Shown here one piece after another: positions 28,109-57,046 of a stretch of 64,000 bases of DNA (the first letter of the stretch is position 1; each line of letters begins with the position of its first letter). A model generated the notes under the pieces. The model had not been told where the DNA came from and ran no database searches. It worked only from the letters and a program-made list of their open reading frames with translations. Source of the stretch: a virus (lineage: Duplodnaviria; Caudoviricetes); IMG/VR virus record IMGVR_UViG_3300029288_000168, positions 5,394 through 69,393 of that record, one strand, 5' to 3'. A program made the position numbers and the translations under genes.

Positions 28109-28621
28109 ATGAAGCTTATCGAGGGTATGAAGAATGTCAAATCCATCCTACGTAAAATGGAGGATATGAGGGGCAAGGTACAGAAGTATTGTGCTGATAT
28201 GGATTTCCAAGCGCCCACATACCCTAACCAGAAAGAGCAGGTTTCTCAGTGGCTTCAGTCGCATCATGATTTGGCGTTGGAACTTACTACGTTGAAGAAG
28301 AATATACAGAAGACCAACCTGTATTCTGATGTTACTATCAGGATTGGAGATAAAGATGTAACTAGATCAATAGCTGAGTGGGTTATAAGGCGCCGGGAAA
28401 TAGTAGACCTTGAAGTGCAGTGCTGGGCTGGTCTTTCCAATAGGAGTTTGCAGGATGTACAGCTTAGGACGGGGTCTGGCGATACTGCACCTGCCAAGGT
28501 AAGGTTGTACTTCGATGCTAAGGAGCGCGACGCCAACGTAGAGCTTTACAAATCGGAGAAGGAGTCGATCGATAAAGCTCTTGAGATAGCAAATGCAACT
28601 ACGAATCTTATTGAGGATTAG
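28109..28621 (+). CDS. Helical coiled-coil protein resembling the DIP1984 family
   Basis: MKLIEGM.. N-terminus, IQKTN, SIAEWVIRRR, C-terminal IANATTNLIED; family recognised from memory, not searched. Confidence 0.6.
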   Translation: MKLIEGMKNVKSILRKMEDMRGKVQKYCADMDFQAPTYPNQKEQVSQWLQSHHDLALELTTLKKNIQKTNLYSDVTIRIGDKDVTRSIAEWVIRRREIVDLEVQCWAGLSNRSLQDVQLRTGSGDTAPAKVRLYFDAKERDANVELYKSEKESIDKALEIANATTNLIED

Positions 28622-28627
28622 TTAATT

Positions 28628-28637
28628 TGTTCTTTGG
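28628..28637 (+). promoter_or_regulatory. boxA-like antitermination element
   Basis: TGTTCTTTGG directly before ncRNA candidate A. Confidence 0.55.
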
Positions 28638-28860
28638 ATAATTAAGTGGCGCGAAAGCGTAGTTATCTGAGCTGAGACTACTCGGATACGTTGCTTAGTT
28701 GCGGGCTCCATAAAACTATCAGGGAAGCCTGAGGGTGGACGACAACAGAAGACTACAAATAGCAGGGGTGTTAGTGACTGGGTACCAGTCCAATCCTGAG
28801 GGTATGTAGGGATGAAAAATAGCTTAACGTAAAGAGTTGACAAAGTCTTCACTTAATTAT
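28638..28860 (+). ncRNA. Structured ncRNA candidate A (about 220 nt)
   Basis: 11-bp closing helix ATAATTAAGTG/CACTTAATTAT, GCGC-GAAA-GCGT tetraloop, AAGACT/AGTCTT, CAGG-GAAG-CCTG, GACTGG-GTA-CCAGTC; no + strand ORF. Confidence 0.7.
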
Positions 28861-28865
28861 AATAG

Positions 28866-28880
28866 TGTTCTTTGATAACA
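28866..28880 (+). promoter_or_regulatory. boxA-like element
   Basis: TGTTCTTTGATAACA before ncRNA candidate B. Confidence 0.65.
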
Positions 28881-29430
28881 TTCACGATAAGAGATAAAAA
28901 TCGGGATCGAACTAAGCGCTTCTAATTGCGTAAATTAGAATCTATCGGGTATAAACCTAAATTGTCTCTTGACAAGACAGTATGATTATCCATACTCGGG
29001 TTACACCGGTACGGATGACAAATGCATGCTGGATAACCCAGCCGACCTAAGGCTCAAGTTTGAAGTTGAAAGACTGAAGACGAGCAAGGCTAATGGTTGA
29101 TGGTTTAAGTTTAAAGGCAATGGTGTCGTTTCCTATTGGGGAAATAGGGAGGTCGCCCGCAAATGCCGAATGACCTTGAGTAAGTTTGGTTCTTAGTTCC
29201 CAGTCGAAACTTTCAAGGCTTCCTTATTGGGGAATGTTTAAATTTCAGGTGGTAAGTTCAAGAGCGGAAACCGGGCGGGTCAGGATGGTCGTGCAGGGCT
29301 GCCTGACAAGGAAGGTGGACATGGCGAGAGGGCTGTCGTAACTGCGAATAGCGATGGGGTAGCCATGGTAGCAAAGACTCTACAAAGTCCCGTAGGGCTA
29401 ACCCTCTTAGGGTTGCTTGGACACGGCAAG
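28881..29430 (+). ncRNA. Large ornate ncRNA candidate B (about 550 nt)
   Basis: Many hairpins plus long-range pairs GAACTAAG(28909)/CTTAGTTC(29192), CGACCT(29043)/AGGTCG(29150), CTCAAG(29053)/CTTGAG(29175); GC-richer than flanks; no convincing ORF. Confidence 0.65.
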
Positions 29431-29455
29431 TATAAATATAATCTATTAAATATAC

Positions 29456-29485
29456 TTGACAAAATGGCATTTTGGATGGTATACT
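29456..29485 (+). promoter_or_regulatory. sigma70-type promoter
   Basis: TTGACA-18-TATACT. Confidence 0.7.
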
Positions 29486-29491
29486 AAACGT

Positions 29492-30025
29492 ATGGGCAAC
29501 AAACGTAAAAGGGCTATTGATCTTTGGAATTCTGGTTGTTTTACCATGCAACAAATTGGTAAACAATTGGGCTTGAGTAGGGAACGCATTAGACAATTTG
29601 TTGAAGATGCTATAAGGAGCAACCAAGCAGTTTTGTCTGCAAAAGAGTGGCAGTTGCATAGGAAAGTTGTAAGGGAGGCTTCAATAGATTGTGTGCGTAC
29701 ATCTAAACTTTGGGATATGCCACTATATACTACTGTTAGTAGAAATGGGTGGGTTAAGGTAAGGTTAAAGAGAATAATTAATAGATGGCGGTGTGAGAAA
29801 TGTGGGTGGCATAAATATCCTATAGCTTTGGTGATCCACCACATCGACAAAAACAGGAGAAACAACGATCCTAATAATTTAATGTTATTATGTCCTAATT
29901 GTCATTGGTTTATACATCAAATGTCTAAAGATTTTAGTATGACATCAAAGGGTCGGAAGAGACAAACGGGTAGTAATTATACGGAACATTTATATAAGAA
30001 GCGACACGCAATTAGAAGTATTTAA
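29492..30025 (+). CDS. HTH (sigma r4-like) plus HNH endonuclease, probably leaderless
   Basis: TMQQIGKQLGLSRERIRQ; CEKCG..IHHIDKNRRNN..NLMLLCPNCH; ATG 7 nt after the -10. Confidence 0.8.
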   Translation: MGNKRKRAIDLWNSGCFTMQQIGKQLGLSRERIRQFVEDAIRSNQAVLSAKEWQLHRKVVREASIDCVRTSKLWDMPLYTTVSRNGWVKVRLKRIINRWRCEKCGWHKYPIALVIHHIDKNRRNNDPNNLMLLCPNCHWFIHQMSKDFSMTSKGRKRQTGSNYTEHLYKKRHAIRSI

Positions 30026-30034
30026 CAAATGTGG

Positions 30035-30043
30035 TGATATAAT
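30035..30043 (+). promoter_or_regulatory. Extended -10 promoter for the tRNA island
   Basis: TG-A-TATAAT, no clear -35. Confidence 0.5.
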
Positions 30044-30289
30044 GTATAGTGATGACAAAGGCGGTCCAATATGAAACCGACTACAGGTGGTTAGATGAGA
30101 ACTGATGAACTTGAGGAAATGCGGTAATGGAAAATATTAAGAATGTTTGAGCAAAAAGATGAGAGTTGAAGAGGAAAAAGGCGCAAGGTAAATAAAGGAG
30201 TAGTACGATGTTTAGGTTATGGCAGGATAGGATGTTGCATTCGTCTGGACAGGGTCAACGCCCCGTCGAGGACGGGTGTAAGTACCCGT

Positions 30290-30410
30290 CAGCCTTAACC
30301 TGTGCTGCTCTGAATTTTAATATTATAGCCAAAACAATACTCGAATAAGCAGCAGCACTTAGGTTAAACTAAAAGGCTGTCGCAATATCGAGAGGAGTTT
30401 TGGCTTTTTT
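30290..30410 (+). ncRNA. Pseudoknot or alternative-fold leader element ending in a U-tract
   Basis: H1 30290-30309 pairs 30351-30379; H2 30327-30344 pairs 30388-30405; the two helices cross. Confidence 0.55.
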
Positions 30411-30417
30411 GTTCTTT
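30410..30417 (+). promoter_or_regulatory. boxA-like element
   Basis: TGTTCTTT before the first tRNA. Confidence 0.5.
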
Positions 30418-30492
30418 GGGGCTGTGGTCTAATGGGAGGACAAGGGTTTTTCAAGCCCTTAGCGAGGGTTCGATTTCCCTCCAGCCCTACCA
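30418..30492 (+). tRNA. tRNA-Glu(TTC)
   Basis: Cloverleaf, loop TTTTCAA, CCA. Confidence 0.92.
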
Positions 30493-30493
30493 T

Positions 30494-30567
30494 GGCGCAT
30501 TCGTCTAAAGGCAGGATAGATGGTTCTCAACCATTTGACACCGGGTCAGTACCGGTATGCGCTACCA
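30494..30567 (+). tRNA. tRNA-Glu(CTC), atypical T-loop GTCAGTA
   Basis: Cloverleaf, CCA. Confidence 0.88.
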
Positions 30568-30576
30568 AATTGAGAG

Positions 30577-31329
30577 GTGACATTGAAATGTATTAATTGT
30601 AATACTGATTTAATAGGTACTCAAACTAAATTCTGCAATAAGAAGTGTAAAGATAATTATTACCATAAACGGGATTTGGTCGATGTAAAATGTACTTGTT
30701 GTGGTAGTATGTTTAAACGCAGAAGGCAGAGATTGGGTATATATCGTAGTTTGTGTAGACATTGTAGTTCTAGGCAGAATGCATTAGATTATATGGCATA
30801 TAAATCTGGTAAAGATAGTCCAAAATGGAGGGGCGGGTACAAGTATTGGATGTCTGGGAGGTACGGCAAGGATAAAGATGGGTTATCTTGGAAGATACAA
30901 CGCAGGCTAGCACGTGAACGTGATGGGTACTTATGTCAGAAATGCGGATGTTGTGAGATAAATAAAAAAGTTAGTGTGCATCATAAAGTACCATACAGAA
31001 TTTCGTTTTCGCATGCTTTAGATAATTTGATATGTTTGTGTAAACGGTGCCACCCCAGAGATGAGTCTCAAATTAAAGAGTTGTGGGGAGGTAAGACGTT
31101 AGCTCCACCTATGAGAGGTTTACCTAAACCACGTTGTAGTATATGTAGCAAAAAGAGAAAGCTTATTGGTGGGATTTGTACAACTTGTATTAGAATTAAA
31201 AACATAACCACAGCTAGGTTGTTATTGAATGAGGGGCTGAGTTATGTTGAGGTTGGTAGGATGCTTAACAAGGATAGGCGGGTTGTTTGGAGTTGGGTCA
31301 ATATTTGTAAAGACGGTGTGGTGCAGTGA
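30577..31329 (+). CDS. HNH homing endonuclease with zinc fingers
   Basis: CQKCG..VHHKVPY..SHALDNLICLCKRCH; 3' end overlaps tRNA-Asp. Confidence 0.85.
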   Translation: MTLKCINCNTDLIGTQTKFCNKKCKDNYYHKRDLVDVKCTCCGSMFKRRRQRLGIYRSLCRHCSSRQNALDYMAYKSGKDSPKWRGGYKYWMSGRYGKDKDGLSWKIQRRLARERDGYLCQKCGCCEINKKVSVHHKVPYRISFSHALDNLICLCKRCHPRDESQIKELWGGKTLAPPMRGLPKPRCSICSKKRKLIGGICTTCIRIKNITTARLLLNEGLSYVEVGRMLNKDRRVVWSWVNICKDGVVQ

Positions 31330-31386
31330 ATAGCATACGAGCTTGTCACGCTTGAGACGCGAGTCTGATTCTCGCCATCGTCGCCA
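31312..31386 (+). tRNA. tRNA-Asp(GTC)
   Basis: GACGGTG/CATCGTC acceptor, loop TTGTCAC, GCCA. Confidence 0.9.
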
Positions 31387-31389
31387 AAT

Positions 31390-31399
31390 TGTTCTTTAA
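31390..31399 (+). promoter_or_regulatory. boxA-like element
   Basis: TGTTCTTTAA before the RNase P RNA. Confidence 0.6.
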
Positions 31400-31694
31400 T
31401 TAAGTTAACGAAGTAGTTGCGGGCCGTTTTACCAGTAAAAAGAAGATTTGGTGGTGTCATCTTCTTTTCGGTCTGAGGAAAGTCCGAGCTCCGCAGAGCA
31501 ACGTAGCAACTAACGGTTGCCCGCCGTGAGGCGAGGATTAGAGGACAGAGACGAGCCACTTAAGTGTGGGTGAGACGACCAATCTCTACGTGGAGCAAGT
31601 TCATATAGGAACCTAGCTGGCTCGGTTGATAGGTTCGGGTAGAACGCTTAGACGGATGACTACATAAACAAAACTCGGCTTATTGTTAACTTGA
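31400..31694 (+). ncRNA. rnpB: RNase P RNA, compact form
   Basis: GAGGAAAGTCC and ACAAAACTCGGCTTA P4 strands; P1 TTAAGTTAAC/GTTAACTTGA; P2, P3, P8, P9 and P15 GGTA identifiable; no apparent P13/14/18. Confidence 0.93.
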
Positions 31695-31775
31695 AAATTA
31701 AAGGGAATTCAGAAACGGCTTTGATGTAGGATCTTGTGAAGAAAACCGCTGATAACGACACTGATAGCCCTACGT

Positions 31776-31869
31776 GGAAGTGAGGTGCATAGTGGTTAGG
31801 CACGCTTGTTTGCTAAACAGGTGAGGATTAAACCCCCCTCTGCTGGTTCGACCCCAGTCACTTCCGCCA
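31776..31869 (+). tRNA. tRNA-Ser(GCT)
   Basis: Long variable arm, GCCA. Confidence 0.9.
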
Positions 31870-31873
31870 TTTT

Positions 31874-31962
31874 GGAGAGTAGCCAGATATGGTTGGCTGG
31901 GACGGCTTGGAATACCGTTTGGGATAAAACCCATGCTGATTCGAATTCAGCACTCTCCGCCA
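31874..31962 (+). tRNA. tRNA-Ser(GGA)
   Basis: Long variable arm, GCCA. Confidence 0.88.
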
Positions 31963-31967
31963 GTATT

Positions 31968-32055
31968 GGAGGATCTGGGCATATTGGTGAGCCCAACCGC
32001 CTCGAAAGCGGTAGCCGTAACAGGCTTGGTTGTTCAACTCAACCATCCTCCGCCA
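31968..32055 (+). tRNA. tRNA-Ser(CGA)
   Basis: Long variable arm, GCCA. Confidence 0.9.
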
Positions 32056-32058
32056 TTT

Positions 32059-32140
32059 GATGCTATAAGATAGGCGTTGTCCGACGGGCATAATGCGACC
32101 TATTGACCAGTCATTGACGAATATAAATCTGGCTAGCATC
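32059..32140 (+). ncRNA. 82-nt three-way-junction RNA candidate
   Basis: GATGCTA/TAGCATC closes ATAGG..CCTAT and CCAG..CTGG arms; not a cloverleaf. Confidence 0.5.
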
Positions 32141-32142
32141 TT

Positions 32143-32229
32143 GGAAGCGCTGAGCAGTGGCTGAGCTCACCCGTCTTGAACACGGGAGCTGTAAAAGGCT
32201 TAGAGGATCGTCGCCTCTCGCTTCCGCCA
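32143..32229 (+). tRNA. tRNA-Ser(TGA), atypical T-loop
   Basis: Long variable arm, GCCA. Confidence 0.88.
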
Positions 32230-32231
32230 TT

Positions 32232-32241
32232 TGTTCTTTAA
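32232..32241 (+). promoter_or_regulatory. boxA-like element
   Basis: TGTTCTTTAA. Confidence 0.6.
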
Positions 32242-32244
32242 TGT

Positions 32245-32318
32245 GGGAGTGAAGTGTTAGGGCAGCATCGCGGTCTCCAAAACCGTTGGTCAAGGTTCAA
32301 ATCCTTGCACTCCTGCCA
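32245..32318 (+). tRNA. tRNA-Trp(CCA)
   Basis: Cloverleaf, GCCA. Confidence 0.92.
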
Positions 32319-32319
32319 A

Positions 32320-32395
32320 GGTGGGATCGCCTAGATGGTAAGGCATTCGTTTCATAAGCGAATTATCGCGGATTCGAGTTCCGCTCCCACTACCA
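32320..32395 (+). tRNA. tRNA-Met(CAT), elongator (Ile2 not excluded)
   Basis: Cloverleaf, loop TTCATAA. Confidence 0.85.
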
Positions 32396-32399
32396 ATTT

Positions 32400-32476
32400 T
32401 GCGGGTTAGACTGGAGGTGGTTCCAGCATAGGCTCATACCCTATTGACATTGGTTCGATTCCAATACCCGCTTCCA
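32400..32476 (+). tRNA. tRNA(CAT), initiator-like
   Basis: 1:72 mismatch, TGCGGGT acceptor, loop CTCATAC; only two G-C pairs in the anticodon stem. Confidence 0.75.
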
Positions 32477-32477
32477 A

Positions 32478-32556
32478 GCGCAGGTACCCAAGTGGTCGAA
32501 GGGGACGGTCTGCAAAACCGTTATTACCGTCGGTTCAAATCCGACCCTGCGCTCCA
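32478..32556 (+). tRNA. tRNA-Cys(GCA)
   Basis: Cloverleaf, U73. Confidence 0.92.
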
Positions 32557-32563
32557 GATTTAT

Positions 32564-32575
32564 TGTTCTTTGTGA
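32564..32575 (+). promoter_or_regulatory. boxA-like element
   Basis: TGTTCTTTGTGA. Confidence 0.55.
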
Positions 32576-32578
32576 TTT

Positions 32579-32655
32579 GCGTTCGTGCGCCGAAATGGAT
32601 AGGCAATCGGCTTTTAACCGATACTATGAGAGTTCAAGCCTCTCCGAACGCACCA
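32579..32655 (+). tRNA. tRNA-Lys(TTT)
   Basis: Cloverleaf, ACCA. Confidence 0.92.
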
Positions 32656-32659
32656 ATAA

Positions 32660-32755
32660 AAGCTGAGATGTAGGTTCAACCCCTCGCAGGGGCAGTTCCT
32701 GCGTATACTAGGCTGTCACGGCAGCCTATAGTTTAATGGTAAAACGCAGCTTGTG
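32660..32755 (+). ncRNA. Circularly permuted tRNA-like RNA (YrlA-like topology) with an insertion in the T-arm
   Basis: Order: AGCTG, T-loop GTAGG-TTCAACC-CCT, hairpin, closed acceptor TAGGCTG-TCACGG-CAGCCTA, TA, D-arm GTTT-AATGGTA-AAAC, CAGCT. Confidence 0.65.
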
Positions 32756-32765
32756 TATAATTATT

Positions 32766-32840
32766 GGGTGTGTAGCAAAATGATAATGCATCTCCCTCTT
32801 AAGGAGAAGAATGAAGGTTAGAGTCCTTCCACACCCACCA
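32766..32840 (+). tRNA. tRNA-Lys(CTT)
   Basis: Cloverleaf, ACCA. Confidence 0.92.
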
Positions 32841-32855
32841 TTTTACAGGAGACAA

Positions 32856-33581
32856 ATGATACATAAACATAAAGTTAATGATAAGTTCTTTGACAAATGG
32901 TCTGCAGATATGGCATATGTTTTAGGATACTTTTTTGGTGATGGTTGTATTTACAAAAATAAGGGCGGGTCTAAACGAGTCATATTTTGTGGTCATCAAG
33001 ATGATGAGGAGTTTCTTAAGAAGTTGGCTAGTATAATAGGGTGTAGTGCTTTGGTATCTCAAAGTAAACGATCTAAATGTTGTAGGTTTGAATTTGTTAG
33101 TGCTAGGATGTTTGATAGGTTATATAGTTTGGGTAAGAGGAAGAGACTTGTTTGTCCTAAGGTACCCAGGGAGTTTATTAGAGATTTTGTAAGGGGATAT
33201 ATTGATTCTGATGGATGTGTAGGATTTGTGAAGTCTGAATACTATAAGACTTTGAGTAGTGGCTATAAAAAATTATATTGTTATAATAAATTGGTGGTGC
33301 AAATGACAAGTAAGGATATTGGGTTTTTATGTAAATTAGAGAAATATATTAGAGGTTTGGGTTTTAAGAAAGCAAATATCCACGGCAATCAATATTTTAG
33401 TGTTTATTATTATAGATTGCATGCACAACGATTAGTAGATTTAATATATTATAAAAATTGTTTAGCTTTAACGAGAAAATTGTTGCAGGTTCGTCTAATT
33501 GGTAGGACGGTTGGTTTTGAGCCAAAAAATCGTGGTTCGAGTCCACGACCTGTAGCCAATGCGGTGTCGACTAATAGGTAG
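32856..33581 (+). CDS. LAGLIDADG homing endonuclease
   Basis: YVLGYFFGDG and FVRGYIDSDG; AGGAG SD gives start 32856; reads through tRNA-Gln(TTG). Confidence 0.88.
   Translation: MIHKHKVNDKFFDKWSADMAYVLGYFFGDGCIYKNKGGSKRVIFCGHQDDEEFLKKLASIIGCSALVSQSKRSKCCRFEFVSARMFDRLYSLGKRKRLVCPKVPREFIRDFVRGYIDSDGCVGFVKSEYYKTLSSGYKKLYCYNKLVVQMTSKDIGFLCKLEKYIRGLGFKKANIHGNQYFSVYYYRLHAQRLVDLIYYKNCLALTRKLLQVRLIGRTVGFEPKNRGSSPRPVANAVSTNR
33484..33558 (+). tRNA. tRNA-Gln(TTG)
   Basis: TGCAGGT/ACCTGTA acceptor, GCCA. Confidence 0.88.
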
Positions 33582-33634
33582 GTCAACTGACTCTGAATCA
33601 GTTAGTTGAGGTTCGAACCCTTACACCGCAACCA
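33560..33634 (+). tRNA. tRNA-Gln(CTG)
   Basis: Cloverleaf, ACCA. Confidence 0.9.
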
Positions 33635-33642
33635 AATTTCAT

Positions 33643-33720
33643 CTGCGTGTAGCTCAGTTTGTCCAGAGCGCTCGGCCAGGAACCGAGAGGTCAGTGGTTG
33701 AAATCCACTCATGCAGACCA
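33643..33720 (+). tRNA. tRNA-Pro(AGG), rare anticodon, C33
   Basis: C1-G72, A73; stem CTCGG/CCGAG, loop CCAGGAA. Confidence 0.85.
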
Positions 33721-33724
33721 TTTA

Positions 33725-33802
33725 CGGAGTGTCGGTCAATTTGGTAGACCACATGCCCTGGGAGCATGAATAGTGAGAGTTCAAGTCTCTCCACTCCGAC
33801 CA
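33725..33802 (+). tRNA. tRNA-Pro(TGG), C33
   Basis: CGGAGTG acceptor, loop CCTGGGA. Confidence 0.9.
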
Positions 33803-33816
33803 ATTTAGAGGTAGTA

Positions 33817-33960
33817 ATGAAGATAAGAAAGAAGTTGCAAAAAGAGATTGAGAGAAGGGGGAAGCTTTCAAGTTGGGAACAGTTTGAAATCGAGACTGCC
33901 GACCCAATGTTGTTTAAGGTTCAAAAAGAGGTACAAAGGAGTAGTAAATGCGGTGCTTAG
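33817..33960 (+). CDS. Small basic hypothetical protein
   Basis: GAGG SD; 47 aa. Confidence 0.45.
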   Translation: MKIRKKLQKEIERRGKLSSWEQFEIETADPMLFKVQKEVQRSSKCGA

Positions 33961-34451
33961 TTTTAAATGCAAGCCATGAGTTTCTTGGCGTCTGTGACTG
34001 GCAGTCGGCTGTTTGTGCTACTGTTACGGGCAAGGTAATAGTTATGGAGGAGTATGATAGGGTTATACACTCTGTATCTATGGAGATGAGGGTTCCGGCT
34101 GTTATAAAGCTTAAGAACTATGTTAAGGTTTCTTATGATAGGATATCCTACGTTTCCTACACCAAGCGCAACGTACATCTCCGTGATAACTACATATGTC
34201 AGTACTGTGGCGAGAAGACGGATTCTAAGCACATAGGCATTGACCATGTTTTACCAGAATCTCGTGGCGGTCAAGACACATGGGAAAATACAGTTTCAGC
34301 TTGCAACCCTTGCAACTTTGATAAGGACAACCGAACGCCTTGGGAAGCAGGTATGAAGCTGATAAGGACTCCCCATAAGCCTCGTGGTTTTAAGGAGATT
34401 ATAAGAATTAAGGTTGGTGAAATACATGATCTTTGGTTGAAGTATTTGTAA
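33948..34451 (+). CDS. McrA-type HNH nuclease
   Basis: LVLNAS, PAVIKL, RDNYICQYCG, IDHVLPESRGG, CNPCNFDK. Confidence 0.9.
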   Translation: MRCLVLNASHEFLGVCDWQSAVCATVTGKVIVMEEYDRVIHSVSMEMRVPAVIKLKNYVKVSYDRISYVSYTKRNVHLRDNYICQYCGEKTDSKHIGIDHVLPESRGGQDTWENTVSACNPCNFDKDNRTPWEAGMKLIRTPHKPRGFKEIIRIKVGEIHDLWLKYL

Positions 34452-34459
34452 AATTTGAT

Positions 34460-34535
34460 GGCGGGTATAGTGTAATGGAAGCACAGGAGACTGTGGCTCT
34501 CCTAGAGCGGGTTCGATTTCCCGTTACTCGCCCCA
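34460..34535 (+). tRNA. tRNA-His(GTG) with encoded G-1
   Basis: 8-bp acceptor G-1:C73. Confidence 0.92.
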
Positions 34536-34541
34536 AATTTC

Positions 34542-34616
34542 GAGTCGCAGGTGTTAGTGACAGCACATCGGGCCGTAACCCCGTTGGTGAAGGTTTAAGT
34601 CCTTCGCGACTCACCA
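34542..34616 (+). tRNA. tRNA-Tyr(GTA), short variable loop, C33
   Basis: G1-C72, A73, loop CCGTAAC; lacks the usual bacterial long arm. Confidence 0.7.
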
Positions 34617-34618
34617 TT

Positions 34619-34630
34619 TGATCTTTGAAA
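34619..34630 (+). promoter_or_regulatory. boxA-like element
   Basis: TGATCTTTGAAA. Confidence 0.6.
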
Positions 34631-34632
34631 TT

Positions 34633-34706
34633 GGGGGCTTGGTATAGCGAGATTACTCCCGCCCTGCAAGCGGGCGACGGCGGTTTGATTCCGCCAGCCT
34701 CCACCA
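34633..34706 (+). tRNA. tRNA-Ala(TGC)
   Basis: G3:U70, loop CCTGCAA. Confidence 0.88.
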
Positions 34707-34711
34707 ATATA

Positions 34712-34839
34712 CGAGCAATAGTGTAATATCTTGTGAGAGTAGGTGTCGACTCCATGGTTAATAGTCAAGGCATTAGGGTAGCAGGACAGCATGATTAGCA
34801 GTGGCTGATAGGTTACGTGAAAATCGTATTGCTCGACCA
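34712..34839 (+). ncRNA. 128-nt acceptor-stem/ACCA RNA lacking a normal anticodon arm
   Basis: CGAGCAATA/TATTGCTCG followed by ACCA; T-like hairpin TACG-TGAAAAT-CGTA; internal hairpins. Confidence 0.55.
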
Positions 34840-34859
34840 ACAATTTAGGGGGGGGGGCA

Positions 34860-35711
34860 GTGTATAAATGTAAATATTGTGGTAAAGAGTTTGAAAAGTG
34901 CGGTAGTCTCGGTGCTCATGTCTTGTGTATGCATAACGTTGAGTTTAGAAGAAAGCAACGCTTACCTAGAAGGTTGCGTGAGGTTATAACTAGACAATGC
35001 GCAGTGTGCGGTTGTAAATTTTCGTATGAGAAAATTGTTGGTAGTAAGAAGGGCGACAGGAAGTGTTGTTCGGTATCATGTGCGGCAAGACGATATCCGA
35101 CGAATGTCAATGTGTGTTTGTGTTGTGGGAAAAATATAGATAGACATCTTAAGTTTTGTAGTTTAAAATGTTGTTATGAATATAAGCGTCAGGAATATAT
35201 TAAAAAGTGGTTGAAAGGCGAAGTTAGTGGGAATACTAAGGATGACTTGTCTAATCATGTACGTAAGTATTTGTTTGAAATCAATAATAATAAATGTGAG
35301 AAGTGTGGTTGGAATGAAGTAAACAAACTTACTGGGCTGGTGCCATTAGAGATACATCATAAAGACGGCAATAGTGGAAATAGTAAAAGAGAAAATGTGG
35401 AGTTGTTATGCCCCAATTGTCATTCCCTTACGTTTAATTATGGTGGGCTTAATGTTGGCAATGGCAGAGAATGTCGCAGGCTGAGTAGGCAGGAACATAA
35501 GCTCGGTATAATACATATTAAAAGATCAATAAAGATAAAGAAAAATTGTCTATTGTGTAATAAAGAATTTTTTGTTTTCCCAAGCCGAAGTAAGAGGAAA
35601 TACTGTTCTCATAAGTGTGCTTTATCTTCCCCTAAAAGAGTATCATATACTACGTCGGGGATGGCGCTTCTTAGCTCTAGTAGTGATAACGTTAGCACAA
35701 CTGTCTTGTAA
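34860..35711 (+). CDS. HNH homing endonuclease with multiple zinc fingers
   Basis: CEKCG..LEIHHKDGNSGNSKRENVELLCPNCH; 3' end overlaps tRNA-Thr(TGT). Confidence 0.87.
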   Translation: MYKCKYCGKEFEKCGSLGAHVLCMHNVEFRRKQRLPRRLREVITRQCAVCGCKFSYEKIVGSKKGDRKCCSVSCAARRYPTNVNVCLCCGKNIDRHLKFCSLKCCYEYKRQEYIKKWLKGEVSGNTKDDLSNHVRKYLFEINNNKCEKCGWNEVNKLTGLVPLEIHHKDGNSGNSKRENVELLCPNCHSLTFNYGGLNVGNGRECRRLSRQEHKLGIIHIKRSIKIKKNCLLCNKEFFVFPSRSKRKYCSHKCALSSPKRVSYTTSGMALLSSSSDNVSTTVL

Positions 35712-35748
35712 ACAGTGAGTCGGAGTTAAATTCTCCGCTAGAGCTCCA
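35674..35748 (+). tRNA. tRNA-Thr(TGT)
   Basis: Cloverleaf, TCCA. Confidence 0.9.
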
Positions 35749-35753
35749 GATTT

Positions 35754-35828
35754 GCCCGTCTAGTGATAATGTTAGCACGTCTGTTTCGTAAGCAGAAAGT
35801 CAGAGTTAAATTCTCTGGATGGGCTCCA
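35754..35828 (+). tRNA. tRNA-Thr(CGT)
   Basis: Cloverleaf, TCCA. Confidence 0.9.
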
Positions 35829-35829
35829 A

Positions 35830-35903
35830 GCTCGTGTGGTTCAAAAGTAGAATGCGTCCTTGGTAAGGATGAGACGACAGAGCGTTACTGTCCACGAGCT
35901 CCA
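35830..35903 (+). tRNA. tRNA-Thr(GGT), atypical T-loop
   Basis: Cloverleaf, TCCA. Confidence 0.88.
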
Positions 35904-35909
35904 GATTTA

Positions 35910-35979
35910 CACGGTGTAGGATAAAGTAGTCTCTCCTGCGCGCAGGAGGATTCAGCTTGACGAACTGACGCCGTGACCA
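35910..35979 (+). tRNA. Degenerate tRNA-like RNA with a self-complementary 6-nt anticodon loop
   Basis: CACGGTG/CGCCGTG acceptor plus ACCA; arm CTCCT-GCGCGC-AGGAG. Confidence 0.6.
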
Positions 35980-35980
35980 A

Positions 35981-36055
35981 GCGGGTGAAGTGTTTATGGT
36001 TACACCCCAGTCTTCCAAACTGGTATAGAGAGATCGTGACTCTCCACCCGCTCCA
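35981..36055 (+). tRNA. tRNA-Gly(TCC)
   Basis: GCG acceptor start, U73. Confidence 0.9.
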
Positions 36056-36060
36056 GATTT

Positions 36061-36135
36061 GCCGCAATAGCTTAATTGGTGAAAGCGACCGCCTGAAGAG
36101 CGGAAGATTCGGCTCGATACCCGATTGCGGCACCA
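36061..36135 (+). tRNA. tRNA-Phe(GAA)
   Basis: Cloverleaf, ACCA. Confidence 0.9.
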
Positions 36136-36139
36136 ATAT

Positions 36140-36222
36140 TCCGAGGTTGGGTAATGGTATCCCAGCGGACTGTTAATCCGTCGCCGTAAGGCATGCAGGT
36201 TCGACTCCTGCTCTCGGAGCCA
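36140..36222 (+). tRNA. tRNA-Asn(GTT) with a long variable arm
   Basis: TCC start, G73; extra arm GCC-GTAA-GGC. Confidence 0.88.
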
Positions 36223-36227
36223 ATTTT

Positions 36228-36303
36228 GCCCGCATAGCCTAGCGGCTAAGGCGACTGGTCTACACCCAGTGCATCGGTGGTTCGAGTCCATCTGCGGGTA
36301 CCA
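36228..36303 (+). tRNA. tRNA-Val(TAC), C33
   Basis: Loop TCTACAC, ACCA. Confidence 0.88.
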
Positions 36304-36307
36304 TTTT

Positions 36308-36399
36308 CGGCGGTTAGTTCAATGGTAGAACAGCGGTCTTATAAGCCGTAAGCATCCGATTAATGCGTAATCGAGGTTCAAGTCCTCGACCGCCGACCA
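36308..36399 (+). tRNA. tRNA-Ile(TAT) with a long variable arm
   Basis: Loop CTTATAA; extra arm GCAT-CCGATTA-ATGC. Confidence 0.85.
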
Positions 36400-36404
36400 A
36401 TTTA

Positions 36405-36481
36405 CCACGTGTGGCTGAGGTAGATATAGCGCCATCCTGATAAGGTGGAGAACGTCAGCGCAAATCTGACCGCGTGGACCA
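36405..36481 (+). tRNA. tRNA-Ile(GAT)
   Basis: Cloverleaf, T-loop CGCAAAT. Confidence 0.9.
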
Positions 36482-36483
36482 AT

Positions 36484-36495
36484 TGCTCTTTGTAA
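36484..36495 (+). promoter_or_regulatory. boxA-like element
   Basis: TGCTCTTTGTAA, closest to the E. coli rrn boxA. Confidence 0.65.
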
Positions 36496-36498
36496 TTT

Positions 36499-36575
36499 AC
36501 CCCTGTCGTCCAATTGAATAAGACATCTGGCTACGAACCAGAAGATTGAAGGTTTGAGTCCTTTCAGGGGTACCA
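36499..36575 (+). tRNA. tRNA-Arg(ACG)
   Basis: Cloverleaf, ACCA. Confidence 0.92.
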
Positions 36576-36578
36576 ATT

Positions 36579-36673
36579 CTTGCAGTCCTGTTGAAAGATA
36601 GGGTGGGCTGGATAACCTTTATTAGTAGAAGATGGGGGCATTTGAGGTATGCTAAAAACTCTACTACTGCAAG
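36579..36673 (+). ncRNA. 95-nt multibranch RNA candidate
   Basis: CTTGCAGT/ACTGCAAG, CCTGT/ATAGG, AGTAGA/TCTACT, GCAT/ATGC helices. Confidence 0.5.
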
Positions 36674-36677
36674 TTTC

Positions 36678-36751
36678 GCGCCTATAGTGTAATGGAAGCA
36701 TTACTTCGTCCTAAGGAGTGGGTGACAGTTCAAATCTGTCTTGGCGCACCA
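36678..36751 (+). tRNA. tRNA-Arg(CCT)
   Basis: Loop GTCCTAA, ACCA. Confidence 0.85.
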
Positions 36752-36761
36752 TTTATTAATA

Positions 36762-36815
36762 GGTTGGCATTGAGGGCGTGCCTTAAGAGTATGAATAACT
36801 CAGCCCTCTCCAGCT
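36762..36815 (+). ncRNA. 54-nt bulged stem-loop abutting tRNA-Arg(CCG)
   Basis: GGTTGG/CCAGCT, AGGGC/GCCCT, GAGT/ACTC. Confidence 0.4.
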
Positions 36816-36888
36816 GCCTGTAGTGTATCGGATCGCACATAACCCTCCGAAGGTTATAGAGTAGGTTCAATTCCTGCCAGGCAGACCA
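36814..36888 (+). tRNA. tRNA-Arg(CCG)
   Basis: Cloverleaf, ACCA. Confidence 0.9.
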
Positions 36889-36896
36889 AATTTAAT

Positions 36897-36972
36897 GTGC
36901 TCGTCACCCAATGGAAAGGGCAATCGTCTTCTAAACGGTTAAGTGCGGGTTCGACTCCCGCCGAGCACTCCA
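36897..36972 (+). tRNA. tRNA-Arg(TCT)
   Basis: Cloverleaf, CCA. Confidence 0.92.
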
Positions 36973-36977
36973 TATGT

Positions 36978-37060
36978 GCGTGAGTGGCGGAATGGCAGAC
37001 GCGCTGCTTTGAGGTGGCAGTGGTAATACCGTAGGGGTTCGACTCCCCTCTCGCGCACCA
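36978..37060 (+). tRNA. tRNA-Leu(GAG)
   Basis: Class II, A73. Confidence 0.92.
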
Positions 37061-37068
37061 ATATGCAA

Positions 37069-37152
37069 GCGAGCGTGGTGGAATGGCAGACACGGCAGCC
37101 TCAAAAGCTGTTGGGTAAAACCGTGAAGGTTCAAATCCTTTCGCTCGCACCA
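37069..37152 (+). tRNA. tRNA-Leu(CAA)
   Basis: Class II, A73. Confidence 0.92.
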
Positions 37153-37156
37153 TTTT

Positions 37157-37240
37157 GTCAGAGTGGTGGAATGGCAGACACAACAGACTTAAAATCTGTC
37201 GGGTAAAACCGTGAGGGTTCAACTCCCTTCTCTGACACCA
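37157..37240 (+). tRNA. tRNA-Leu(TAA)
   Basis: Class II, A73. Confidence 0.92.
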
Positions 37241-37246
37241 ATTAAT

Positions 37247-37329
37247 GCCCGGGTGGTGGAATGCAGACACGTTAGCCTTAGGAGCTAATGCCGTAAGGCG
37301 TGAGAGTTCAAATCTCTTCCTGGGTACCA
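37247..37329 (+). tRNA. tRNA-Leu(TAG)
   Basis: Class II, A73. Confidence 0.92.
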
Positions 37330-40792: not shown

Positions 40793-40903
40793 GGGAGTCT
40801 TGTATGTATAAATCAAGTAAACAATTAAGAGGTAATGAGGCACGCCAAGTGCAGTCTGTCTCCGGCTGTCTTAAGTCGGCAGGACTCCTACTCGTTACCT
40901 CTG
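40793..40903 (+). ncRNA. Pseudoknotted 5' leader of the HNH gene
   Basis: 40793-802 pairs 40880-889; 40828-839 pairs 40892-903 (crossing); two inner hairpins. Confidence 0.6.
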
Positions 40904-40921
40904 TTCTATGCAGGGACTAAT

Positions 40922-41683
40922 ATGCCAACAACTGTGCAAGTTTGTAGAATATGCAAGGTAGGAAAGCCTACTACAGAGTTTTATAAACGGACAAATAAGA
41001 CTGGACATAGAACTGAGTGTAAGGATTGTAGGAGAAAATACGGAAAGTTATATAGGCTGGAACATAAAGCAGAAATTGCCAATGCAAAAAAGATGCAGGC
41101 GCAGTTGCACCCAGAGAAAGTTAGAGCTAGGAGAGAACGATATAAGCGAGCGCACCCAGATAGGGTAAGAGCTACTCAGAAACGGTATGCGCAGGTTCAC
41201 CCAGAGAATGGTCGGTTTAGGCAGAAGCGGTACCGTAAAGCGCACCCAGATAGAGTGGCTGCTAAAAATAAACGTTGGACGGAAGGTAATTTAGAACATA
41301 TAATTGCTTATCGGAAGCGGTACCGTCAGACGGAAGTGTATAAATTATCAGCCAGGGTAAATTCGCACAACCAAAAGACAAAGCGAGCAATTGTTGGTCA
41401 TTTAAGTTTGGGAACAGTGCAACAAGTTTATGAAGACAACATTAAGAAATATGGGACGCTTACTTGTGAATTGTGTTTTGATGTAATAGTGTTTGGCAAC
41501 GATTCGATTGAACATAGTATACCAATAGTAAGAGGCGGTACGCACGAGCGTTCTAACTTAGGCGTGGCTCATTTGCCGTGCAATTTATTTAAGGGTAGGA
41601 TGACGCTTGATGAATGGTTTGTATTACATTCAGAATATAAAGAAAGGAGGGGGAGTTATAATGGCAAAGGCAAAGGTTTTTAA
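40922..41683 (+). CDS. HNH endonuclease
   Basis: CRIC..CKDC N-terminus; CELC..SIEHSIPIVRGGTHERSNLGVAHLPCNLFKG; start moved to ATG 40922. Confidence 0.82.
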   Translation: MPTTVQVCRICKVGKPTTEFYKRTNKTGHRTECKDCRRKYGKLYRLEHKAEIANAKKMQAQLHPEKVRARRERYKRAHPDRVRATQKRYAQVHPENGRFRQKRYRKAHPDRVAAKNKRWTEGNLEHIIAYRKRYRQTEVYKLSARVNSHNQKTKRAIVGHLSLGTVQQVYEDNIKKYGTLTCELCFDVIVFGNDSIEHSIPIVRGGTHERSNLGVAHLPCNLFKGRMTLDEWFVLHSEYKERRGSYNGKGKGF

Positions 41684-56400: not shown

Positions 56401-57046
56401 AAAATGTCACGGGGTGGTTGTTCCTGTGGTTGAAATGTATAGTAAACAACATTTAAAGGTGTTCTTTGATAATATTAAAATGCATATTCACCCTGGTTTG
56501 AAGTATAAACTGCCAACTACCTATTGTAATTCTAAATTTGATGGTGGCAGTGGTGGCAATGTTGCTAGAGTTCCGGCGTTGGTTAAGTGTGTTGGTATAA
56601 CTGAGGTTTGTTATTCAAATGACAAACGTAGGGGTTATTTAGATGCTTGTAAACACAAAACTAAATACAATATTGAGGTTGAAGATAACCACAATTATTT
56701 TGTAGGAGGAGGTGCTAAATACTTTTGTTTAGTTAAAAATTGCATTCAATCACTAGGTGCTGACATTTCCTTCCTATCCCTTATAAAAATACATGATAAA
56801 TTGGTTGCAGATGGGGTGTTATACAATGGTGTTTTTATTATAAATACTATACACGATTCTATACTGTTTGATGTGAGACGCCAATACTTAAAGTATGTGT
56901 GCGATGAAATAGCGCCGATTATGACAGATGTGCCAAAGATGCTAGGGTTTAAGGTTAAGTTTCCTGTGGATATAAAGGTAGGCAAGCGCTGGGGTGAGTC
57001 ACTGAAATTGGAGGATATACTAAAACAAGAGGTTGAAAGTGCCTAA
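53450..57046 (+). CDS. polA: Family A DNA polymerase with N-terminal family-4 UDG domain, 3'-5' exonuclease and an intein
   Basis: GQSPG..GKPFVG, HPAYILR; DIET; DFSQQEVR; RQIAKGCVFGAIFG; IHDS. Confidence 0.92.
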   Translation: MVDFKVDNFESSANCSACTLNNTPKVFSCISNVSQVDILVIGQSPGLNEVKEGKPFVGASGELIHRVLDQYSKNTAMVNIISCRPEDQETNKDRQPSTIEVKCCRPRLDADINYIISHLPPKTILVFGAIAKKEMQRILKSNPSYEKIPIATFDHPAYILRNRHLEPRYVAQLHNHMKSIFGNSSTVSVEEKFVTYTDNLKHQFVEDAYSSKNVGVDIETNSLNVFSLSFIIGTIAVSCDKFTYFFDCREKDIKEYDVLVDFLQSDKVQKVFADILFDVVALAQYNIKVRNYSDLFPLAFIYDNTYNEYGLEAISMRYMPDLAGYKSKFKSSLVEHDYLGAPTEELKRYNAYDSYMTRMLYNYIYDRLDVKAKTIFEKITVKLLPVLVVLKCSGMKIDADLLDQYTGIFKGRIDELSKYFNDKYGVTNINSTPQISKWLFETLKLKPIKYNDLTATQKAKGQKKGSPSTDKEVLEAYANEVPDVNPLYEARRVTNVLTYFLPSIKESLDDRDIVHPNFKHYGIQSFRLACKAPPLQGIPRDETKSEFLNQYPLRRLFVARFSDSYILECDFSQQEVRIVAELARDKGMMDTFAKNEDIHKFVGSLVFEKPIDQITKFERQIAKGCVFGAIFGASAKEMSVRLHMPEKQAQTYLNKFVDAFPSVSDYLALQHRAVKKNGVIHTVLGRPRKFLIDSNSRSAIADAEREAANHCFHWDTRVLLEGGASKTIKEIVDKKLSVKVASVNSATNKIEFKRVVNWFKNEYKDPRWLRVNVQGSNGKHGAVCTPDHRYYTSRGVVEAKNLRVGDMLYTNYLHIPSTTCEQIILGSLLGDGGISMSNGVRLYMTHCNKQRSYLEYKCSILQPYIGGKVSKGVAGLKSFKPGNIMWNYRSNVHWNLAEYYNLKYPNLGVKDIVNKISWLGLAIWYQDDGGLCRSRHNVGRRSHHREGWRQFIRIHTESFSFDESILLAELLNKKFGLKLYVRKRKCHGVVVPVVEMYSKQHLKVFFDNIKMHIHPGLKYKLPTTYCNSKFDGGSGGNVARVPALVKCVGITEVCYSNDKRRGYLDACKHKTKYNIEVEDNHNYFVGGGAKYFCLVKNCIQSLGADISFLSLIKIHDKLVADGVLYNGVFIINTIHDSILFDVRRQYLKYVCDEIAPIMTDVPKMLGFKVKFPVDIKVGKRWGESLKLEDILKQEVESA
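55580..56740 (+). mobile_element. Intein (387 aa) with LAGLIDADG endonuclease
   Basis: AANH|CFHWDTRV ... YNIEVEDNHNYF..VKN|CIQS; LGSLLGDG and AIWYQDDG. Confidence 0.92.

What the first reader, a model, noticed from the sequence alone, without database searches (positions are those of the whole stretch)
28881..29430. ncRNA candidate B: about 550-nt ornate RNA with pseudoknot-type long-range pairs
Seen: at least eight local hairpins (e.g. TTCTAATT/AATTAGAA, GCTGG/CCAGC, TCCTATT/AATAGG, AACCCT/AGGGTT) and long-range pairs 28909/29192, 29043/29150 and 29053/29175, the last two crossing. Size and tRNA-adjacent position recall ROOL/GOLLD, but I cannot match it to either.
Basis: partly seen in the sequence, partly recalled or inferred. 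Interest (0 to 1): 0.75.

Follow-up and report, generated by a model that had tools for sequence, protein, structure and literature searches.

The report
Knotted phage RNA with partner protein
The gap holds a real, about 362-base knotted non-coding RNA from an uncatalogued family that accompanies one small helical-protein gene in hundreds of uncultured phages, so the two probably form an undescribed RNA-protein particle of unknown function.

Summary
The conserved RNA is 28877-29238 (362 nt). The 29239-29430 tail is specific to this phage and shows no folding signal.

I found relatives by following the upstream 170-aa DIP1984/DUF6847-like gene. Of the loci with enough sequence, 63 of 74 metagenome or MAG loci and 61 of 78 IMG/VR loci carry the same RNA on the same strand. 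It usually starts about 25 nt after the stop codon.

On 52 distinct sequences the model pairs 85.8% of cells against 67.5% in shuffles (0/500). The model has:
- a terminal helix P0;
- a helix crossing P1, which makes a pseudoknot;
- a probable second, H-type pseudoknot.

A single-stranded run of about 9 NNNNAAG(G) units, spaced 7-8 nt apart, is conserved. About 60% of members carry a tRNA-shaped or YrlA-like module at one fixed site. This window has plain hairpins there.

No Rfam 15 family matches: not GOLLD, ROOL, RAGATH-27 or tmRNA. YrlA matches only below threshold, and only in some relatives. I found no paper on it.

Function is unknown; a particle formed with the neighbouring protein is the best guess.

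This scan has already noted the same gene-plus-RNA pair on other DNA (at least 66 genomes).

The parts
28109..28621 (+). 170-aa helical protein gene, a divergent DIP1984/DUF6847-like family member; the RNA's constant genomic partner
   Evidence: 55 homologues. NF038048 hits all 28 aligned relatives, but below the cut-off. PF20935 hits 14 of 28. The AF2 model has pLDDT 95 and is closest to 3KDQ at Z 13.2 over 149 residues. It is the only protein conserved around the RNA, in 88 loci.
28837..28866 (+). Sigma-70-like promoter (TTGACA, then AATAGT or TATAAT at 28858-63), placed to start transcription a few bases before P0
   Evidence: Consensus scan and reading of the sequence. Function is inferred.
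28866..28879 (+). boxA-like TGTTCTTTGATAAC directly before P0
   Evidence: GYTCTTT(G/C) stands at the same place in the closest clade: L010, L013, L015, L017, L041-L044. It is absent in most other members. Its role is inferred.
28877..28883 (+). P0 5' strand (AACATTC); pairs with 29232-29238
   Evidence: helix 1: the inner five pairs are 90-100% paired with 4-6 pair types each. In the partner-swap test the native pair is better in 52/52.
28884..28900 (+). Unpaired joint ACGATAA plus the near-invariant GAGAUAAAA(A)
   Evidence: Present at a fixed 7-nt distance from P0 in nearly all members found.
28901..28916 (+). P1 5' strand (TCG ... GAACTAAG); pairs with 29192-29207
   Evidence: helices 2-4. 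Partner swap 52/52.
28916..28940 (+). Probable H-type pseudoknot PK1: GCGC, TTCTAATT, GCGT (inside the loop), A, AATTAGAA
   Evidence: The same a-b-a'-b' layout is found in 43 of 52 members, against 34% of shuffles. The alignment is too poor for a column-by-column count, so this is inferred.
28941..29027 (+). Variable module site: plain hairpins here; a tRNA-shaped, YrlA-like or T-arm element in about 60% of members
   Evidence: A natural 89%-alike variant contig replaces 28941-29021 with 75 other letters.
29028..29042 (+). Hairpin GCTGG-ATAAC-CCAGC, conserved within the closest clade
   Evidence: Different stem letters stand at the same place in L010, L013, L015, L017, L042-L044.
29044..29117 (+). 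Single-stranded purine-rich array of about ten NNNNAAG(G) units
   Evidence: Spacing of A[AG]G units across 52 members peaks at 7 nt (148 cases) and 8 nt (102 cases); median 9 units per RNA. No consensus pairing is predicted there.
29116..29167 (+). Hairpin P6 (GGCA...TGCC, enclosing TCCTATT/AATAGGG)
   Evidence: A helix with changed letters stands at the same site in relatives. Not counted formally.
29168..29186 (+). Conserved GAAUGA joint and the 5' strand of the crossing helix (CCTTGAG, AGTT)
   Evidence: helices 5-6: 91% and 90% paired, and 5 of 6 outer pairs change on both sides. Partner swap 49/52.
29192..29207 (+). P1 3' strand (CTTAGTTC ... CGA), lying inside the crossing helix, hence a pseudoknot
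29208..29218 (+). 3' strand of the crossing helix (AACT, TCAAGG)
29217..29231 (+). Near-invariant GGCUUCC and a 3-bp hairpin (CCU/GGG)
   Evidence: helix 7; it hardly varies, so it says little.
29232..29238 (+). P0 3' strand (GAATGTT); likely 3' end region of the RNA
   Evidence: In relatives a run of four or more T follows within 28 nt in 21 of 49, against 3.4 expected. There is no such run in this window.
29239..29430 (+).
   Evidence: No counterpart after the RNA in relatives. z -0.87. Single copy in the record.

Best explanation
Positions 28877-29238 encode a stable, trans-acting non-coding RNA. It belongs to an uncatalogued family that is the fixed genomic partner of a DIP1984/DUF6847-like helical protein in uncultured phages.

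Shown: the fold.
- A terminal helix (P0) joins the two ends.
- A 12-16-bp long-range helix (P1) crosses a second helix, locking the core into a pseudoknot.
- From this core the RNA displays an unpaired row of about nine to ten 7-8-nt NNNNAAG(G) units.
- It also displays one swappable module: tRNA-shaped or Y-RNA-like in most relatives, plain hairpins here.

Inferred: the RNA and the neighbouring protein form a ribonucleoprotein. The invariant unpaired motifs and/or the periodic row would be the protein's binding sites, possibly one protomer per unit. The module would recruit tRNA-recognising factors, so the particle would act in the phage's tRNA or RNA-metabolism programme. In this phage it has its own promoter and sits at the head of a 34-tRNA array that also holds an RNase P RNA.
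For: Structure:
- 85.8% of 1623 cells are paired against 67.5 +/- 0.7 in shuffles (0/500).
- 326 cells change on both sides against 108.6 in shuffles.
- Sliding the 3' partners drops pairing to 31-55%.
- Native strands beat strands swapped between members in 52/52 (P0), 52/52 (P1) and 49/52 (crossing helix).
- MFE z is -3.13 on the plus strand with the correct ends and 0.0 on the minus strand.

Coupling to the protein:
- The RNA 3' domain is found on the same strand beside the gene in 63 of 74 loci with room.
- It is also found in 61 of 78 IMG/VR loci. Most of the remaining IMG/VR loci hold divergent copies by eye.
- No other neighbouring protein is conserved.
- The order is reversed (RNA first) in 9 loci, yet the two remain adjacent.

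Other points:
- The periodic row is conserved.
- The module is tRNA-shaped in 19 of 52, T-before-D (YrlA-like order) in 5, and a T-arm only in 8. Sub-threshold YrlA hits reach E 2e-7.
- A promoter-like site stands just upstream.
- No ORF of 60 codons or more lies on the plus strand inside the RNA.
Against: - There is no expression data: no RNA run is on record for this sequence.
- Binding of the protein to the RNA is untested.
- The protein fold (3KDQ) has no known function.
- Bona fide cellular DIP1984 genes (four loci) lack the RNA, so the fold alone does not imply RNA binding.
- This window lacks a U-tract after P0, so its 3' end is uncertain.
- Adjacency would also be expected for a cis-regulatory element.
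Confidence: 0.5

Rival explanations
1. An RNA-only machine. Like ROOL and GOLLD, the RNA self-assembles into a homo-oligomer or cage. The neighbouring gene is merely co-inherited or helps its maturation.
For: It is phage-borne, large and multiply knotted. It sits next to tRNA islands and has tRNAs embedded in a variable linker, as reported for GOLLD (bioRxiv 10.1101/2024.12.08.627333).
Against: At about 300-400 nt it is much smaller. The one-to-one linkage with a single protein family across otherwise unrelated neighbourhoods is not a feature reported for ROOL or GOLLD. A long unpaired purine row looks more like a binding track than a cage strut.
Confidence: 0.15
2. A cis-acting element of the protein's mRNA. 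It would be a 3'-UTR (or leader) platform that terminates, stabilises, processes or feedback-regulates the DIP1984-like message.
For: It usually starts 19-45 nt after the stop codon. A U-tract follows P0 in about 40% of members.
Against: - Here it is 270 nt from the gene, behind another element, and has its own promoter-like site.
- In 9 loci it precedes the gene.
- 300-400 nt with two knots, invariant unpaired motifs and an embedded tRNA is far more than a terminator or stabiliser needs.
Confidence: 0.12
3. A decoy or sponge for a host factor. The tRNA-shaped module would bait tRNA-targeting defence nucleases or tRNA enzymes. The AAGG row would soak up an RNA-binding regulator or the 16S anti-Shine-Dalgarno tail, independently of the neighbouring protein.
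For: The embedded tRNA-like modules carry arbitrary anticodons, including A34 and stop-reading ones. The array consists of repeated AAGG units.
Against: 19 of 52 members, this window included, have no tRNA-like module. GGA, the core of CsrA sites, is not conserved in the units. This reading does not explain the fixed protein partner.
Confidence: 0.15
4. Not a functional RNA: chance hairpins in a spacer, or a missed small gene.
For: Short ORFs of 43 and 51 codons overlap the region.
Against: Covariation and conservation hold across 52 or more distinct sequences at protein identities down to about 36%. The short ORFs are not conserved.
Confidence: 0.02

Closest known systems
Bacterial Y RNAs of the YrlA type with Ro60/Rsr (Rfam RF02553; PMC4201824)
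   Same: Both are modular RNAs encoded beside a dedicated protein gene, with ends brought together by a stem. In 5 of 52 members an internal tRNA mimic has the order T-arm, closed acceptor stem, D-arm. Four of 18 relatives scanned give YrlA hits (E 2e-7 to 6e-3), two of them over the whole model.
   Different: - All hits are below the gathering score (31-46 against 69 bits), and there is none in this window.
- No TROVE/Ro60 gene is in this record, and none recurs among the neighbours.
- The RNA is three times larger, with knots and a heptamer row that Y RNAs lack.
GOLLD (RF01998) and ROOL (RF03087) large phage RNAs
   Same: Phage-borne, ornate and pseudoknotted, and near tRNA islands. GOLLD sometimes carries tRNAs in a variable linker, as this family does.
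   Different: - No covariance-model match at E up to 10 in the window, or up to 1 in 18 relatives.
- About 300-400 nt against about 580-800 nt.
- A fixed protein partner gene.
- Self-assembly is untested.
HutP on hut mRNA and TRAP on the trp leader (Bacillus subtilis; own knowledge)
   Same: Evenly spaced NAG triplets on unpaired RNA. In those systems each triplet is read by one subunit of a protein ring. HutP sites also have a 7-nt period.
   Different: Those are cis-acting attenuators with 6 to 11 triplets and no folded core. The proteins are unrelated in fold. Oligomerisation of the protein here could not be tested.
RAGATH-27 motif (RF03100), named in earlier notes of this scan as covering the first 86 nt of related RNAs
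   Same: Possibly the 5' part of a sister branch of the same superfamily, according to those notes. I did not check this on their DNA.
   Different: No RF03100 match in this window (E up to 10) or in 18 relatives (E up to 1).
tmRNA with SmpB
   Same: An RNA with tRNA-like and pseudoknot parts and a small dedicated protein partner gene.
   Different: ARAGORN and Rfam find no tmRNA. There is no acceptor end, no tag reading frame and no SmpB fold.

Membership tests
GOLLD RNA (RF01998) | Match to the family covariance model (conserved 3' domain) | tested here: not met
   No hit at E up to 10 in window 28300-31800. None at E up to 1 in 18 relatives.
ROOL RNA (RF03087) | Match to the family covariance model | tested here: not met
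   no hit.
ROOL/GOLLD | RNA-only homo-oligomeric cage | not testable with these tools
   Needs SEC-MALS or cryo-EM.
YrlA / bacterial Y RNA (RF02553) | Covariance-model score at or above the gathering score of 69 bits | tested here: not met
   The window has no hit. Relatives L054, L122, L116 and L072 score 46.5, 40.7, 38.3 and 30.9 bits.
YrlA / bacterial Y RNA | Encoded near a Ro60 (TROVE) gene on the same strand | tested here: not met
   No PF05731 match in the 69-kb record. No recurrent neighbour other than the DIP1984-like gene. The record is only 37% complete.
YrlA / bacterial Y RNA | tRNA-like domain with the order T-arm, closed acceptor stem, D-arm | tested here: not met
   Absent in the window. 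Present in 5 of 52 relatives.
RAGATH-27 (RF03100) | Match to the family covariance model | tested here: not met
   no hit.
tmRNA | tRNA-like acceptor end plus a tag reading frame | tested here: not met
   ARAGORN lists no tmRNA. No Rfam tmRNA hit.
DIP1984 family / DUF6847 (partner protein) | Profile match at or above the curated cut-off | tested here: inconclusive
   NF038048 scores 19.3 bits against a cut-off of 70 for the window protein, but all 28 relatives hit (best E 1.2e-12). PF20935 hits 14 of 28.
DIP1984 family / DUF6847 (partner protein) | Fold of 3KDQ | tested here: met
   Model pLDDT 95.2. 3kdq_A at Z 13.2 with 149 of 152 residues aligned, next best 8.8. Foldseek E 4.7e-4.
HutP/TRAP-type periodic RNA track | Evenly spaced purine triplets on unpaired RNA | tested here: met
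   Spacing peaks at 7 and 8 nt; median 9 units.
HutP/TRAP-type periodic RNA track | Oligomeric protein that reads one unit per subunit | not testable with these tools
boxA/Nus antitermination site | GCTCTTTA-like boxA in the transcript ahead of the RNA | tested here: inconclusive
   TGTTCTTTGA stands at 28866-75, and similar words stand in the closest clade only. Here it overlaps the predicted -10 region, so it may not be transcribed from the near promoter.

The most novel reading that the evidence does not exclude
The RNA is the scaffold of a new kind of phage ribonucleoprotein. Each 7-8-nt AAG(G) unit would bind one DIP1984-like protomer, giving a roughly nine- to ten-subunit array on a knotted RNA core. 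This particle would work like a Y-RNA adaptor without Ro60, bringing tRNA-recognising or RNA-processing enzymes to phage or host RNAs during infection.
Probability: 0.25. Interest if true: 0.85.

Novelty: categorically new. Interest (0 to 1): 0.72.

Why it matters
If this holds, a widespread and unstudied RNA-protein pair of phages joins the few large structured bacterial or phage RNAs known. I count 188 metagenome and 130 IMG/VR relatives of the gene, most of those examined having the RNA. It has a defined fold, a built-in tRNA mimic and a periodic protein-type track. It gives the orphan DIP1984/DUF6847 fold a first testable partner in its phage branch. It may also bear on why phages keep large RNAs in or near tRNA islands, as with ROOL and GOLLD. 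The fold model is specific enough to design probing, binding and cryo-EM experiments directly.

Tried and rejected
Searches that found nothing:
- blastn of the region against GenBank phages: no match.
- tblastn of the window protein and of P0053 against GenBank phages: no match.
- First protein-pattern scans of IMG/VR with single proteins: nothing, or only two distant phages that lack the RNA.
- The 15-mer GACCTAAGRCTCAAG in IMG/VR: 22 hits, of which 21 are by chance.
- Genome collection: only 7 MAG contigs from unrelated phyla, so no host clue.
- No other conserved neighbour gene.

Expression:
- No RNA holder is listed for this sequence.
- The one run labelled RNA-Seq is probably DNA and covers only 28627-28863.

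- A covariance model of the whole RNA could not be built. Alignments exceeded 400 columns, and a model of about 340 positions would exceed the calibration limit. I used MAFFT alignments, nhmmer profiles and a partner-swap test instead.

Other checks:
- Fold search of the protein gave only 3KDQ and generic helical hairpins. The TasH-tigRNA rows are weak (probability 0.2-0.4, TM 0.2-0.27).
- A lead from earlier notes says phage T5 carries the pair. My family profiles and a heptamer scan found nothing in T5 (AY543070) positions 1-72000. The rest of T5 was not scanned, and T5's annotated stable RNAs (RNAX, RNA2, RNAIV) do not resemble this family by eye.

Full report
**Setting.** The window is 64 kb of a 69-kb IMG/VR phage record estimated to be 37% complete. 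All genes run on the plus strand.

- It holds 34 tRNA genes at 30418-37329 and a bacterial type-A RNase P RNA at 31401-31697 (148.8 bits).
- HNH and LAGLIDADG endonuclease genes are interleaved with the tRNAs.
- Replication genes lie further on.
- Near-identical DNA occurs in landfill, groundwater and digester metagenomes.

The finding lies in an 835-nt gap without a convincing ORF, between a 170-aa gene (28109-28621) and an HNH gene.

**First checks.** Rfam 15 gives nothing in 28300-31800 apart from tRNAs and RNase P, even at E up to 10. On this evidence alone the case would be weak.

**Finding relatives.** DNA searches failed, so I followed the upstream protein.

- It has 55 homologues. Every contig I fetched shows a 290-520-nt ORF-free gap behind the gene.
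- Those gaps share clear motifs with the window: GAGATAAAA, a hairpin with a CG-containing loop, a run of NNNNAAG units, AAGTTA...ACTT, and GCTTCC...GGG.
- A profile scan of JGI metagenomes gave 188 relatives of the gene (80 fetched). IMG/VR gave 130 (80 fetched). The genome collection gave 7 MAG contigs.
- An nhmmer profile of the RNA's 3' domain finds it on the gene's strand in 63 of 74 loci with room: 58 downstream and 5 immediately upstream.
- The same profile finds it in 61 of 78 IMG/VR loci. Most of the remaining IMG/VR loci contain recognisable divergent copies.
- Clustering all neighbouring ORFs shows that no other protein is conserved around the pair.
- Four bona fide cellular DIP1984 genes, found among 401 sampled genomes, lack the RNA.

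**Boundaries and fold.** In every member, 5-10 nt lying exactly 7 nt upstream of GAGATAAAA pair with the letters directly after the 3' GGG. In the window this is AACATTC 28877-83 with GAATGTT 29232-38. This helix, P0, sets the RNA at 28877-29238 (362 nt).

- Behind GAGAUAAAA, positions 28901-16 pair with 29192-29207.
- The 3' strand of P1 lies inside a second helix (29174-86 with 29208-18). The two cross, which makes a pseudoknot.
- On a 52-sequence alignment (A5) the model has 85.8% of cells paired against 67.5 +/- 0.7 in shuffles (0/500).
- 326 cells change on both sides against 108.6 in shuffles. Pairing falls to 31-55% when partners are slid by 1-3 columns.
- MAFFT puts the P1 3' strand of two clades one column out of register, so I added an alignment-free test. 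Native strand pairs give lower duplex energy than strands swapped between members in 52/52 (P0), 52/52 (P1) and 49/52 (crossing helix).
- With the correct ends, the window RNA folds at z -3.13, and the MFE structure contains P0 and P1.
- Directly after P1 a compact H-type knot is probable: GCGC, TTCTAATT, GCGT in the loop, A, AATTAGAA (28916-40). The same layout recurs in 43 of 52 members against 34% of shuffles.
- In 21 of 49 relatives a run of four or more T follows P0, against 3.4 expected. This fits a transcript end there. The window lacks such a run.
- In the window a TTGACA/TATAAT-like site at 28837-66 would start transcription just before P0.

**Displayed elements.**

- A purine-rich row, unpaired in the consensus (29044-29117), has A[AG]G units spaced mostly 7 nt (148 cases) or 8 nt (102 cases) apart. 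The median is 9 units per RNA.
- Between PK1 and this row lies a variable site. ARAGORN calls a tRNA there in 19 of 52 members, with unrelated anticodons including tta, atg, act and aca.
- Five members have the permuted order of T-arm, closed acceptor hairpin, D-arm. Eight have only a T-arm. Nineteen, including the window and its clade, have plain hairpins.
- Rfam's YrlA model hits four of 18 relatives scanned below threshold, at 31-46 bits against 69. Two of those hits span the whole model. That topology is the one described for YrlA (PMC4201824).
- A natural variant contig that is 89% alike keeps both flanks but replaces 28941-29021 with 75 other letters. This fits a swappable module.

- The pairs CGACCT/AGGTCG (29043/29150) and CTCAAG/CTTGAG (29053/29175) have no counterpart in the closest relatives. 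The second competes with the conserved crossing helix.
- The 29239-29430 tail, including AACCCT/AGGGTT, is absent behind the RNA in relatives. It is single-copy and folds no better than shuffles (z -0.87).
- The 220-nt element between the gene and the RNA (28638-28860) is likewise specific to this phage lineage.

**The partner protein.** AlphaFold gives a confident model (pLDDT 95.2): a long helical hairpin plus a small sheet. Its only clear structural relative is 3KDQ, the DIP1984 protein of unknown function, at Z 13.2. Invariant Y38, W48, N70, W91, R94, R95, R140 and N162 would suit nucleic-acid binding, but that is inference. PADLOC gives nothing.

**Interpretation.**

- Shown: a conserved, knotted RNA fold and its near-obligate linkage to one protein family.
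- Inferred: that the two form a particle; that the periodic row and/or the invariant unpaired motifs are the protein's sites; and that the tRNA-like module engages tRNA-recognising factors.
- The rivals are an RNA-only assembly, a cis element of the mRNA, and a decoy for host factors. They are weighed in their own sections.

**Comparison and novelty.**

- It works most like a Y RNA (a modular adaptor with a tRNA mimic beside its protein's gene). It resembles GOLLD in carrying tRNAs in a linker near tRNA islands.
- It fails every membership test I could run for GOLLD, ROOL, YrlA, RAGATH-27 and tmRNA.
- A full-text search for DUF6847 or DIP1984 found one unrelated paper. Surveys of phage RNAs that I read do not describe it.
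- This scan's own notes record the same gene-plus-heptamer-RNA pair on other DNA, with 79 notes from at least 66 genomes. It is therefore new to the literature as far as I can tell, but not new to the scan.
- Their lead that phage T5 carries it was not reproduced in T5 positions 1-72000.

Noticed in passing
window 31401-31697 (+): A phage-encoded bacterial type-A RNase P RNA (148.8 bits, full model span but only 297 nt, with several peripheral helices shortened), sitting inside the tRNA array between tRNA-Asp and tRNA-Ser.
   Followed up: partly
window 30418-37329 (+): A 34-tRNA array covering nearly all amino acids, interleaved with HNH and LAGLIDADG endonuclease genes. Rfam also calls a tRNA at 30494-30564 that ARAGORN does not list.
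   Followed up: no
window 28638-28860 (+): A 220-nt element between the protein gene and the RNA. It is absent from all relatives outside this phage lineage but present in about 90%-alike variant contigs. No Rfam hit.
   Followed up: partly
window 29239-29440 (+): A G-rich, hairpin-containing 200 nt between the RNA and the HNH gene's promoter. It has no relatives, no ORF worth noting and no folding signal (z -0.87).
   Followed up: partly
L018 3578-3651; L121 3099-3174: tRNA-shaped modules embedded in relatives of the RNA carry a UUA anticodon (read as ochre suppressor by ARAGORN). Others carry A34 anticodons (atg, act, aca, aat) that are unusual for working tRNAs.
   Followed up: no
L123-L127, L193, L206, L209, L210: In nine loci the order is reversed. 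The RNA ends about 20-40 nt before the protein's start codon, so the two are probably one transcript there.
   Followed up: partly
L074, L086, L088: One sub-lineage has a hairpin-rich insertion splitting GAGAU from AAAAC, and a second insertion in the 3' terminal hairpin. This shows which joints tolerate insertions.
   Followed up: no
window 53450-57046 (+): The DNA polymerase I gene has a LAGLIDADG endonuclease-like segment at residues 821-951 (phrog_11023), suggesting an intein or inserted homing endonuclease.
   Followed up: no
L219 (phage T5, AY543070) 30284-33083 and 40848-41566: T5's tRNA region is annotated with eight 'stable RNAs with unknown functions', including a 719-nt RNAX behind a small hypothetical gene. 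They are analogous in position, but neither my profiles nor my eye see homology.
   Followed up: partly
control genomes: Deinococcus radiodurans was the only one of 14 control genomes with a bona fide DIP1984 gene. It was also one of the two with a TROVE/Ro60 match. I could not see whether the two genes are near each other.
   Followed up: no
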